From a virus (lineage: Duplodnaviria > Caudoviricetes), in IMG/VR virus record IMGVR_UViG_3300010348_001841: a stretch of DNA of 64,000 nucleotides; one strand, written 5' to 3'. The translations under genes were made by a program, and so were the position numbers. Each line of letters starts with the position of its first letter. The stretch's first letter is position 1. The notes beneath the pieces are model-generated. The model was not told the DNA's origin, searched no databases, and saw nothing but the letters and a program-made list of their open reading frames with translations. Below are positions 57,971 through 58,089 of this stretch, in pieces.

Positions 57971-58089
57971 TGGTGCCGCCCCCGGGAATCGAACGCCGGT
58001 CCTACTCCTTGTCATGGATGGAATAGATTGCTGAACGTATCCTTATCAGGATCACCTTTTTAGTTGTGCTACCATTACACTAAGGCGAC
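57971..58089 (-). ncRNA. Y-like RNA H: CCA-ending tRNA body with the family stem in place of the anticodon arm
   Basis: GTCGCCT/GGGCGGC acceptor, D and T arms, internal ATCCT-GATA-AGGATACGTTCAGCAA. Confidence 0.8.

What the first reader, a model, noticed from the sequence alone, without database searches (positions are those of the whole stretch)
57971..58089. Circular permutation of the Y-like RNA: a CCA-ending tRNA whose anticodon arm is the family handle
The RNA has a normal acceptor stem with ACCA, a D arm and a T arm. The anticodon arm is replaced by ACT-AAAAAGGTG-ATCCT-GATA-AGGATACGTTCAGCAA...AGT. Here the usual 3' strand plus GAT is joined directly to the usual 5' strand. The handle is therefore a structural unit independent of RNA ends. 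This copy could be aminoacylated or RNase P processed. It also hints that the linear members may circularise (inference).
Basis: partly seen in the sequence, partly recalled or inferred. Interest (0 to 1): 0.85.

Follow-up and report, generated by a model that had tools for sequence, protein, structure and literature searches.

The report
tRNA carrying a Ro60-partner RNA handle
A giant phage and at least 20 uncultured relatives keep a gene for a complete, CCA-ending tRNA whose anticodon stem is split by the short "handle" that marks the likely partner RNAs of the phage's Ro60-like protein, so it is probably a tRNA-shaped adapter or decoy and not a decoding tRNA or a dead gene.

Summary
Window 57971-58089 (minus strand) encodes a cloverleaf ending in ACCA. 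A 44-nt insert carries the phage's "handle": a helix, U-N-CAGCAA on one side and an A-run on the other. Here the helix is closed by a GAUA loop. The anticodon arm is not replaced. The insert sits between positions 29 and 30, and a 5-bp stem with a 7-nt A-U-NNN-A-A loop survives.

Twenty-two copies from related phage contigs support every helix by covariation. Rotating the RNA at the GNNA loop aligns it end to end with the linear tRNA-like handle RNA at 54242-54357. It is therefore a true circular permutation.

The "anticodon" triplet drifts as freely as the tetraloop N positions, while neighbouring real tRNAs keep their anticodons. I found no insert-free or spliced form. In Vibrio phage KVP40, similar genes are annotated as tRNA pseudogenes, and two of them have no anticodon loop at all.

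The phage's DUF2828 protein has a Ro60 fold. My best reading is a stable tRNA/Y-RNA chimera that docks on that protein. Binding, aminoacylation and splicing remain untested.

This scan has already noted the DUF2828-plus-CAGCAA-handle system in at least 93 other genomes.

The parts
57971..58089 (-). Whole RNA gene: a CCA-ending tRNA body with a handle insert (119 nt)
   Evidence: Rfam tRNA 23.8 bits across the insert. There are 22 copies in related contigs and covariation in all helices.
58083..58089 (-). Acceptor stem, 5' strand (GUCGCCU)
   Evidence: It pairs with 57975-57981. All 7 pairs show changes on both sides across the copies.
58066..58080 (-). D arm (GUGU / AAUGGUA / GCAC)
   Evidence: Three of 4 pairs change on both sides, and 98.9% of cells are paired.
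58062..58064 (-). Outer 3 nt of the anticodon stem, 5' side (ACU), just before the insert
   Evidence: They pair with AGU at 58004-58006. All 3 pairs covary.
58018..58061 (-). 44-nt insert at tRNA position 29/30: an A-rich linker, the handle hairpin, GUU-CAGCAA and an A/U-rich linker
   Evidence: Removing it in silico gives a 75-nt tRNA-Val(GAC) by ARAGORN. No insert-free copy was found.
58037..58055 (-). Handle helix closed by a GAUA tetraloop (GU-G-AUCCU / GAUA / AGGAU-AC)
   Evidence: The inner 5 bp are invariant, partly because the search pattern selected them. The next pair covaries (G-C, A-U, U-A) or is G.A. The loop is GNNA in all 22 copies.
58028..58033 (-). CAGCAA, the single-stranded hallmark of the handle; it starts 10 nt after the first base of the 5'-type strand
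   Evidence: The spacing is the same as in 54 linear handle RNAs. The same motif defines Dictyostelium Class I RNAs (PMC7919456).
58004..58017 (-). Rest of the anticodon arm: CC, the loop AUGACAA, GG and AGU
   Evidence: The loop frame A-U-NNN-A-A is conserved (pairwise difference 0.11) while NNN is free (0.61, against 0.69 for the tetraloop N positions).
57982..57999 (-). T arm (CCGG-C-G / UUCGAUU / C-CCGG) with one bulged C
   Evidence: Three of 5 pairs change on both sides. L006 has 6 clean pairs.
57971..57981 (-). Acceptor stem 3' strand, discriminator A and the encoded CCA
   Evidence: Read directly from the sequence. CCA is kept in 21 of 22 copies.
57941..57969 (-). Sigma-70-like promoter (TTGACA, 17 nt, TAAAGT) starting 2 nt after the CCA, for the downstream gene
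   Evidence: TTGACA directly after the CCA recurs in most orthologues.
54242..54357 (-). Linear sibling: handle 5' strand, CAGCAG, an anticodon-like hairpin (loop CUGUAAA), T arm, acceptor closed by a loop, D arm and handle 3' strand
   Evidence: It is colinear with the rotated element.
16658..18103 (-). Gene of the DUF2828 + DUF7788 (vWA) protein, the presumed binder of the handle
   Evidence: Pfam. The AF2 model has pLDDT 86.9. The top 12 PDB matches are all Ro60/TROVE. Binding was not tested.

Best explanation
The gene makes a stable chimeric RNA. It is a complete L-shaped tRNA body of valine type, with a free acceptor end and an encoded CCA. A side arm is grafted into the 5' strand of its anticodon stem.

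That side arm is the closed (hairpin) form of the handle that marks this phage's family of small RNAs. The handle is a short helix flanked by A and G, a single-stranded U-N-CAGCAA, and an A-run on the opposite strand.

Inferred steps:
1. The RNA is cut out of the tRNA-array transcript like its neighbours. RNase P cuts at the 5' end, and the 3' end is trimmed to the CCA.
2. The insert stays in the RNA.
3. The phage's Ro60-fold protein (DUF2828 with a vWA domain) docks on the handle, as Ro60 docks on Y RNAs.
4. The tRNA body is the cargo. It acts as a tRNA look-alike that brings tRNA-recognising factors to the ring, or draws them away from real tRNAs. Candidates are host anticodon nucleases, repair ligase, the CCA enzyme or a synthetase.

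It does not read a fixed codon. It is the end-swapped twin of the YrlA-like linear members, in which the acceptor is closed and the handle is open.
For: Shown:
- The cloverleaf and the split anticodon stem are held by covariation in 22 copies.
- There is one such gene per complete relative genome, by one pattern. It lies between tRNA-Lys(CUU) and tRNA-Gly(UCC).
- Those neighbours keep their anticodons in 9 of 10 loci. The element's triplet reads GAC, UAC, CAC, UCU, UCC, GUC or CAU, and some loops have 8-9 nt.
- Triplet diversity is 0.61, against 0.69 for the free tetraloop positions and 0.11 for the loop flanks.
- The handle shares features that the search did not impose with 54 linear handle RNAs; shuffled sequence gave 5 hits.
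- The rotation test peaks at the GNNA loop in 4 genomes.
- The DUF2828 model matches full-length Ro60 structures (E 2.5e-9 to 1.8e-5, TM up to 0.63). The gene is present in all 4 complete relatives.
- tRNA-like cargo of linear relatives matches the tRNA-like core of Rfam YrlA (32.8 bits, below threshold).
- KVP40 carries at least 4 hairpin-type copies. In tRNA-Pseudo-4 and -5 the handle fills a closed anticodon stem, so excising it could not give a tRNA.

From the literature:
- Y RNAs tether Ro60 to effectors (PMC4201824).
- A phage Ro60 binds phage Y-like RNAs and host PNPase (PMC12135203).
- In phage Bas63, the Ro60-like gp130 lies upstream of the tRNA array and counters the Ppl defence (PMC11482910).
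Against: There is no binding, expression or size data for this RNA. The link to DUF2828 rests on co-occurrence in the same genomes; here the two genes lie 40 kb apart.

Excising the insert gives a perfect 5-bp anticodon stem and a canonical 75-nt tRNA. This is also what an intron would leave behind.

All four complete relatives encode RtcB, a ligase able to seal such a cut.

Eight of 22 copies have valine anticodons (NAC). That is more than chance would give and could mean residual valine identity.

The invariance of the handle core in my set is partly imposed by the search pattern used to collect it.
Confidence: 0.55

Rival explanations
1. The insert is a small protein-spliced intron. An unknown endonuclease cuts at U29|A and U|C30, RtcB joins the exons, and a normal tRNA results. 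The linear tRNA-like members would then be permuted precursor tRNAs matured through a circle, as in the red alga Cyanidioschyzon.
For: In-silico excision gives a 75-nt cloverleaf that ARAGORN calls tRNA-Val(GAC), and 14 of 22 copies are called after a crude cut. The stem halves on either side of the insert covary. RtcB is present in 4 of 4 complete relatives. CCA is kept.
Against: The triplet is unconstrained, and loop length varies between 7 and 9 nt, while neighbouring tRNAs are fixed. No archaeal-type splicing endonuclease is present in 4 genomes, and there is no group I core. No insert-free or spliced junction sequence was found in the viral or metagenome collections. KVP40 Pseudo-4 and -5 would lose the whole anticodon loop. 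The same handle flanks cargo that is not a tRNA. The loop closing the acceptor of the linear sibling is conserved and does not look like a disposable spacer.
Confidence: 0.13
2. It is a working, aminoacylated tRNA that keeps the extra arm. It either still decodes, or it delivers its amino acid somewhere other than the ribosome. The handle serves only for regulation or stability.
For: The acceptor, the T and D loops, A73 and the CCA are intact. Here A35-C36 are also present; I know these as the main valine identity marks in E. coli. Eight of 22 copies have NAC triplets.
Against: Orthologues with nearly the same body carry triplets for Arg, Gly, Asp, Met/Ile and Val. From general knowledge of the ribosomal A site, a 42-nt arm on the anticodon stem should clash with it; this is an inference. 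The window already has tRNA-Val GAC and two tRNA-Val UAC genes.
Confidence: 0.12
3. The handle is a processing or cleavage signal that has nothing to do with the Ro60-like protein. For example, it could be a site for an RNase that releases tRNA halves or trims array transcripts.
For: Handles lie between tRNAs throughout the arrays. No protein binding has been shown.
Against: Three handle RNAs lie directly beside the DUF2828 gene here, and four follow it in coliphage Alf5. The conserved single-stranded motif next to a helix resembles a protein docking site. Earlier notes of this scan report the co-occurrence in hundreds of phages; I did not check this.
Confidence: 0.12
4. It is a dead tRNA gene, disrupted by insertion of a repeated element. 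This is how KVP40's copies are annotated.
For: tRNA finders reject it or call it a pseudogene.
Against: Compensatory changes occur in every helix across 22 diverged copies. CCA, the T-loop and the D-loop are kept, and so is the position in the array.
Confidence: 0.03

Closest known systems
Bacterial and phage Y RNAs of the YrlA type with Ro60/Rsr (Rfam RF02553; Chen et al. 2014, PMC4201824; Thermus phage phiLo Ro60 with Yrl1/2, PMC12135203)
   Same: A small RNA made of a protein-docking stem plus a tRNA-like domain (T arm, acceptor, D arm), encoded in a genome that also encodes a Ro60-fold ring protein with a vWA domain. The linear siblings have the YrlA order, and their cargo partly matches the YrlA model.
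   Different: The protein belongs to DUF2828, not Pfam TROVE. The handle lacks the GNCGAA motif and has CAGCAA instead. There is no Rfam YrlA hit. In this RNA the topology is reversed: the acceptor is open with a CCA, the docking stem is closed by a tetraloop, and an anticodon-like loop is retained.
Dictyostelium Class I RNAs (Rfam RF01414; Kjellin et al. 2021, PMC7919456)
   Same: The handle has the same design: a start AAG, a short terminal stem, the motif ..U.ACAGCAA directly after the 5' strand, an A-rich stretch before the 3' strand, and an end CUGU. Short linear phage members score 27-38 bits on the full model.
   Different: All scores are below the gathering score of 41.5. Class I RNAs are about 60-nt linear RNAs of amoebae with no known tRNA body. 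Here the stem is closed and embedded in a tRNA. Whether the likeness reflects common descent or convergence is open.
KVP40 'tRNA-Pseudo-3, -4, -5' (NC_005083.2: 179301-179416, 180967-181090, 181101-181213), and the pseudo-tRNAs counted in T4-like phages Aeh1 and 44RR (PMC1524935)
   Same: For KVP40: CCA-ending or tRNA-shaped genes of 113-124 nt with a handle hairpin plus C-N-GCA in the anticodon arm, in a T4-like phage that has a DUF2828 gene.
   Different: They are annotated as pseudogenes with no function proposed. In Pseudo-4 and -5 the handle replaces the anticodon loop inside a closed stem, whereas here it splits the stem. I did not inspect the Aeh1 and 44RR genes.
Circularly permuted tRNA-like genes: two-piece tmRNA (RF01850 and RF04321, present in this window at 42888-43299) and permuted tRNA genes of Cyanidioschyzon merolae (from my own knowledge)
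   Same: The same structural modules are encoded in rotated order, so the RNA ends fall at a different place in one fold.
   Different: Those cases give one functional molecule type per genome. Here both rotations coexist in one genome as separate genes. No circular intermediate is needed or shown.
Bas63 gp130, the Ro60-like counter-defence protein of a Felixounavirus (PhageMaP preprint, PMC11482910)
   Same: A Ro60-like gene directly upstream of a phage tRNA array. Its authors suspected that some of the 'tRNAs' are Y RNAs. The related coliphage Alf5 has a DUF2828 gene followed by four handle RNAs.
   Different: No partner RNA or handle was defined there. I found no hairpin-type tRNA in the 19 kb of Alf5 that I scanned. 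I did not check that gp130 itself is a DUF2828 protein.

Membership tests
tRNA (Rfam RF00005) | Cloverleaf with a 7-bp acceptor stem, a D arm, and a T arm with a T-loop | tested here: met
   One search gives 23.8 bits, below the gathering score of 29 because of the insert. Orthologues L044 (41.9 bits) and L004 (29.4 bits) pass it. Covariation supports the helices. The T stem has one bulge.
tRNA (Rfam RF00005) | Contiguous 5-bp anticodon stem with a 7-nt loop | tested here: not met
   The stem is split by 44 nt between positions 29 and 30. It is contiguous only after in-silico excision.
tRNA (Rfam RF00005) | Anticodon conserved among orthologues (a fixed decoding identity) | tested here: not met
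   There are at least 12 different triplets in 22 copies, and some loops have 8-9 nt. The flanking tRNA-Lys(CUU) and tRNA-Gly(UCC) are unchanged.
tRNA (Rfam RF00005) | Aminoacylation and use on the ribosome | not testable with these tools
   This needs acid gels or charged-tRNA sequencing.
YrlA / bacterial Y RNA (RF02553) | A Ro60-fold protein encoded in the same genome | tested here: met
   DUF2828 + vWA gene at 16658-18103. Its model matches Ro60 structures. It lies 40 kb from this RNA, and three linear members are adjacent to it.
YrlA / bacterial Y RNA (RF02553) | Ro-binding motif GNCGAAN0-1G in the terminal stem (PMC4201824) | tested here: not met
   The motif is absent from the handle sequence.
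YrlA / bacterial Y RNA (RF02553) | Match to the Rfam covariance model | tested here: not met
   No hit at E <= 10 on this element or anywhere in the window. Only the cargo of linear relatives gives partial hits of 32.8 bits, against a gathering score of 69.
YrlA / bacterial Y RNA (RF02553) | RNA ends lie in the docking stem, and the acceptor-like stem is closed by a loop | tested here: not met
   It is the reverse here: an open acceptor with a CCA and a docking stem closed by GAUA. The sibling at 54242-54357 meets the feature.
YrlA / bacterial Y RNA (RF02553) | Physical binding to the Ro60 protein | not testable with these tools
   No RNA-protein prediction or experiment was available.
Dictyostelium Class I RNA (RF01414) | The motif ..U.ACAGCAA directly after the 5' strand of a short stem | tested here: met
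   GUUCAGCAA follows AGGAUAC. CAGCAA starts 10 nt after the start of the strand, as in 54 linear members (PMC7919456).
Dictyostelium Class I RNA (RF01414) | The stem joins the 5' end (AAG) and the 3' end (CUGU) of an RNA of about 60 nt | tested here: not met
   In this RNA the stem is closed by a tetraloop inside a 119-nt tRNA. Linear siblings do meet the feature.
Dictyostelium Class I RNA (RF01414) | Score at or above the Rfam gathering score (41.5 bits) | tested here: not met
   The best related phage RNA scores 38.1 bits (L003:2104-2158). The best in the window scores 29.8 bits, at 59920-59975.
Intron-bearing tRNA gene (group I, or bulge-helix-bulge type) | A group I catalytic core, or a bulge-helix-bulge motif together with a splicing endonuclease gene | tested here: not met
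   The insert is 44 nt and gives no Rfam intron hit. PF01974 is absent from 4 complete relatives, with the best E-value at 0.07.
Intron-bearing tRNA gene (group I, or bulge-helix-bulge type) | Insert-free alleles or spliced transcripts exist | tested here: inconclusive
   One junction pattern (valine type) gave 0 hits in viral contigs and 5 chance hits that are not tRNAs in metagenome contigs. Small RNAs are rarely assembled, so this is weak evidence.
Circularly permuted RNA gene pair | The same modules in the same cyclic order with different end points | tested here: met
   The best rotation is 42-46 nt in four genomes, with scores of 82-91 against 48-58 unrotated.

The most novel reading that the evidence does not exclude
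This is the first natural fusion of a complete, chargeable tRNA with a Y-RNA-type docking arm. The Ro60-like ring would hold a real tRNA body by a side handle, with its anticodon loop and CCA end exposed. That body would act as bait or decoy for host anticodon nucleases and other tRNA-directed defences, and its freely changing triplet would record an arms race. The same handle would also explain the Class I RNAs of social amoebae as partner RNAs of a Ro60-like protein.
Probability: 0.2. Interest if true: 0.88.

Novelty: new variant of a known kind. Interest (0 to 1): 0.7.

Why it matters
Genes of this shape have been annotated as tRNA pseudogenes in KVP40 since its genome was annotated, and were probably among the pseudo-tRNAs counted in other T4-like phages. 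This work shows they are conserved, structured and built to a plan.

They show that the docking handle of a very large, uncharacterised Ro60-like protein family works as a portable module. That family has 6,239 clusters at 50% identity and occurs in 704 cultured phage records. The handle can sit at the RNA ends or as a side arm on a full tRNA.

This gives a clean experimental entry point. The same protein should bind two rotated RNAs. Cultured phages such as KVP40 and the Felix O1-like coliphages carry the parts. One Ro60-like phage protein, gp130 of Bas63, already has a counter-defence phenotype.

Tried and rejected
- Thermodynamic folding of the element alone is not significant (z = -1.49). 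It also prefers a competing stem, CUAUUCC/GGAGUAG, which covariation does not support.
- The whole-genome search of the window's own genome failed because no genome is held. I used four complete relatives instead.
- My first hairpin pattern on those genomes had the spacing wrong by one base and missed the known copies. It was corrected.
- A loose descriptor for linear handles gave no more hits than shuffled sequence (12 against 11.9). It became informative only after I added RGRNU and the trailing G.
- The spliced-junction pattern found nothing in viral contigs and only coding-region chance hits in metagenomes.
- blastn of the 119 nt against GenBank phages found nothing. The KVP40 copies were found by a pattern search.
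- After excision, the body is not specifically similar to the phage's own tRNA-Val genes. The best global match was tRNA-Phe.
- A hammerhead-like reading of CUGAUAAG was rejected, because the loop is merely GNNA in orthologues.
- My automatic search for acceptor stems and split points mis-set several copies. I corrected them by hand or with extra constraints.

Full report
**Setting**

The window is part of a giant phage genome. It holds 56 tRNA genes and a tmRNA on one strand, and a sub-threshold match to RNase P RNA. Earlier notes of this scan describe the phage as a T4-like phage of about 370 kb from activated sludge.

**What is at 57971-58089**

Read on the minus strand, the 119 nt give these parts:
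- a 7-bp acceptor stem followed by ACCA;
- a D arm (GUGU/GCAC);
- a T arm with a UUCGAUU loop and one bulged C.

Between the D and T arms lie 55 nt where a tRNA has 11. Rfam aligns the tRNA model across this insert at 23.8 bits, below its threshold of 29. ARAGORN misses the gene. Two orthologues pass the Rfam threshold despite the insert: L044 at 41.9 bits and L004 at 29.4 bits.

**Orthologues**

- The 342-aa gene just downstream led to seven related viral contigs. Five have the RNA directly upstream. In a sixth, L002, it lies about 630 nt upstream of the gene.
- A pattern built on the handle found about 24 more copies.
- Twenty-two distinct copies were aligned as A1.

Because of the pattern, the invariance of AUCCUG-NN-AAGGAU and CAGCA in this set is partly imposed. 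The copies found by synteny show the same motif, with one G for A in L005.

**Structure**

On A1, the structure I propose has 93.8% of cells paired. Nineteen of 28 pairs change on both sides, and no shuffle out of 500 reaches the observed values. Sliding the partners by 1-3 columns drops pairing to 41-52%.

- The three bases after position 26 pair with the three bases after a conserved GG. The pairs seen are ACU/AGU, CUU/AAG, CGA/UCG, CGU/ACG and GCU/AGC.
- A conserved CC directly after the insert pairs with that GG.
- The loop between them is mostly 7 nt and reads A-U-NNN-A-A.

The handle hairpin with its linkers (44 nt here, 36-54 nt elsewhere) is therefore an insert between positions 29 and 30 of a recognisable anticodon arm. 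Deleting it in silico yields a 75-nt cloverleaf that ARAGORN calls tRNA-Val(GAC).

**The handle and the permutation**

The window holds seven or eight minus-strand RNAs with the open form of the handle. From 5' to 3' they read:
- A, then a 5' strand that starts RGRNU;
- C-N-GCA-R starting ten bases after the first base of that strand;
- the cargo;
- an A-run, then the 3' strand ending YCY, then G.

A stricter descriptor finds 80 hits (54 after filtering) in the window plus fetched loci, against 5 in shuffled sequence.

The hairpin and open forms share features that my searches did not impose:
- a U two bases before CAGCA (53 of 54 linear copies);
- the A-run before the 3' strand;
- the flanking A and G, which in the closed form become the first and last bases of a GNNA tetraloop.

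I tested the permutation directly. In four genomes I aligned every cyclic rotation of the tRNA-with-handle to the same genome's linear tRNA-like handle RNA (window 54242-54357, L001:5403-5518, L004:7300-7413, L026:5628-5742). The best rotations are always 42-46 nt (41-45 in L004), which is inside the tetraloop. Scores are 82-91, against 48-58 unrotated; the mean over all rotations is 64-70 with sd 11-12. The alignment is then colinear through all modules:
- handle 5' strand and CAGCAA;
- anticodon-like hairpin;
- T arm;
- acceptor 3' strand;
- acceptor 5' strand;
- D arm;
- A-run and handle 3' strand.

The two RNAs differ in where the chain is open. In the first it is open at the acceptor, with a CCA. 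In the second it is open at the handle.

**Is it a decoding tRNA?**

The neighbours say no. In nine of ten loci the gene lies between tRNA-Lys(CUU) and tRNA-Gly(UCC), whose anticodons never change. The element's triplet at the same position reads GAC, UAC, CAC, UCU, UCC, GUC or CAU. Five of the 22 copies have loops of 8 or 9 nt.

Mean pairwise difference per site:

| Positions | Difference |
|---|---|
| Triplet 34-36 | 0.61 |
| Two free tetraloop positions | 0.69 |
| Loop positions 32, 33, 37, 38 | 0.11 |
| Acceptor 5' strand | 0.33 |

The loop frame is therefore selected and the triplet is not. Eight of 22 copies have valine triplets, so some valine ancestry or identity may remain.

**Is the insert an intron?**

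For an intron:
- Excision leaves a clean tRNA.
- The stem halves on either side of the insert covary.
- RtcB ligase is present in all four complete relatives.

Against an intron:
- There is no splicing endonuclease family in those genomes.
- There is no group I core.
- No insert-free gene or spliced junction turned up in the viral or metagenome collections for the valine-type junction. This evidence is weak.
- The triplet is unconstrained.
- The same handle flanks cargo that is not a tRNA.
- The cultured Vibrio phage KVP40 has at least four hairpin-type copies, three annotated as tRNA-Pseudo-3, -4 and -5. In Pseudo-4 and -5 the handle hairpin fills a closed 5-bp anticodon stem and no anticodon loop exists. 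Excision could not give a tRNA there.

I put splicing at about 0.13.

**The protein**

The gene at 16658-18103 encodes a protein with DUF2828 and DUF7788 (vWA) domains. Three handle RNAs lie directly upstream of it.
- A profile of the family gives weak top hits to TROVE/Ro60 chains (E 0.006-0.05).
- An AlphaFold model built on 45 sequences has pLDDT 86.9 and pTM 0.86.
- By Foldseek its 12 significant matches (E <= 0.001) in the PDB are all Ro60/TROVE chains: frog, human, Deinococcus and Thermus phage (E 2.5e-9 to 1.8e-5, TM up to 0.63 over more than 500 columns).

The family is very large:
- 6,239 clusters at 50% identity;
- 704 cultured phage records, including KVP40, Felix O1-like coliphages, Listeria P100-like phages and mycobacteriophages, where it is annotated as "Ro-like RNA binding protein".

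In coliphage Alf5, four unannotated linear handle RNAs follow the gene directly, one with tRNA-like cargo. Binding of the handle by this protein is inferred from co-occurrence only.

**Comparison with known families**

- YrlA-type Y RNAs. The architecture is the same: a docking stem plus a tRNA-like domain, and a Ro60-fold partner. Membership fails on three counts. The GNCGAA motif is absent, there is no Rfam hit on this RNA, and the topology is reversed.
- Dictyostelium Class I RNAs. The handle matches their design. Rfam RF01414 aligns full-length to the short linear members at 27-38 bits, against a threshold of 41.5. The published hallmarks are a start AAG, a 6-bp stem, the motif CCUUACAGCAA, an end CUGU and a length of about 60 nt (PMC7919456). 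All recur in the phage RNAs. I treat this as a strong resemblance, not as membership.

**Literature hints at function**

- Bas63 gp130, a Ro60-like protein upstream of the tRNA array, counters the Ppl defence (PMC11482910).
- Thermus phage Ro60 binds Y-like RNAs and host PNPase (PMC12135203).
- A P100-like Listeria phage has an Rsr-like protein near highly transcribed non-coding regions (PMC12282133).
- Jumbo-phage surveys list TROVE proteins among RNA-repair systems (PMC7824862).

None of the papers I could search defines this handle, or a CCA-ending tRNA that carries it.

**Cargo theme**

The cargo of linear members is rich in hairpins with 7-nt loops of the anticodon type. CUUUUAA occurs seven times and CUGUAAA five. 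In all there are 39 signature hairpins, T-loops included, against 3.3 in shuffled cargo. From my own knowledge, these two loops are the anticodon loops of E. coli tRNA-Lys and tRNA-Tyr, which are classic targets of anticodon nucleases. This fits a bait or decoy role but does not prove it.

**Verdict**

The most likely reading (0.55) is a stable tRNA/Y-RNA chimera that docks on the Ro60-like protein through a side arm and presents a tRNA body that does not read a fixed codon.

This scan has already noted the DUF2828-plus-CAGCAA-handle system in at least 93 other genomes, including notes of two rotations and of whole-tRNA cargo. What this report adds:
- the exact insertion point of the handle;
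- the covariation evidence;
- the rotation test;
- the free triplet, measured against fixed neighbours;
- the negative junction searches;
- the KVP40 "pseudogenes" as a cultured test case.

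Noticed in passing
window 56879-57907 (-): The 342-aa gene right after the RNA has no Pfam hit. It carries a MIDAS motif (D-H-S-G-S near the N-terminus, T-D-G later). Its AF2 model (pLDDT 82) matches vWA domains over about 200 residues and adds a beta-rich C-terminal domain. It is therefore a second vWA protein, and it stays syntenic with the handle-bearing tRNA.
   Followed up: partly
window 45997-46339 (-): Match to bacterial RNase P RNA class A over the full model at 64.5 bits, below the threshold of 100. The phage may encode its own RNase P RNA next to tRNA-Asp.
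   Followed up: no
window 51332-51439 (-) and 52260-52348 (-): Near-threshold Rfam matches inside the tRNA array: Atu_At1 sRNA (55 bits, threshold 60) and tRNA-Sec (36.4 bits, threshold 47).
   Followed up: no
window 60635-60721 (-): ARAGORN reports a tRNA with a four-base anticodon (tgta) between tRNA-Trp and tRNA-Tyr.
   Followed up: no
L003:1944-2035 and L003:2040-2090: Two further hairpin-type handle RNAs with different cargo. The first has only an acceptor stem, a short stem-loop and a T arm, ends in ACCA, and hits the tmRNA model as a bare tRNA-like domain (25.1 bits). The second has a plain 5-bp stem (GGGAC/GUCCC) as cargo. L010 has a similar pair after its tRNA-type copy.
   Followed up: partly
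L047:651-780 and L047:789-899; L018:8597-8818: Tandem pairs of hairpin-type tRNAs. In L047 the first copy has an acceptor 3' strand that no longer pairs. The second has lost the tetraloop and part of the CAGCAA region. These may be decaying copies or assembly errors.
   Followed up: no
L012:3462-3704 (-): A group I intron (59 bits, above the threshold of 50) inside a related phage's tRNA array.
   Followed up: no
window 59921-59976, 52049-52112; L003:2103-2157, L004:2222-2276, L044:1461-1521 and others: Short linear handle RNAs (54-64 nt) carry a single 4-5-bp hairpin. Its 7-nt loop reads like an anticodon loop: CUUUUAA (Lys-like), CUGUAAA or CGGUAAA (Tyr-like), CUUGUAA, CUUCUAA. Orthologous positions sometimes switch triplet.
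   Followed up: partly
window 58090-58199 (-) and the matching spacers in L001, L003-L006: The spacer between tRNA-Lys and the element keeps a TATAAT-like box about 25-30 nt upstream of the RNA's first base and an N-CCAA-N stretch just before it. This may be the element's own promoter and leader.
   Followed up: no
L089 (coliphage Alf5, NC_031082.1) 10767-10832, 10933-10990, 11388-11454, 11474-11599: Four unannotated linear handle RNAs (AGACC... CAGCAA ... GGUCU-G) directly downstream of the DUF2828 gene of a phage that infects E. coli K-12. The last one has tRNA-like cargo with a closed acceptor stem.
   Followed up: partly
L123 (KVP40, NC_005083.2), about 181330-181450 (-): A fourth hairpin-type tRNA-with-handle gene that the KVP40 record does not annotate at all. 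It lies beside tRNA-Pseudo-5. A small gene annotated as RNA ligase (57B) lies about 1 kb away.
   Followed up: partly
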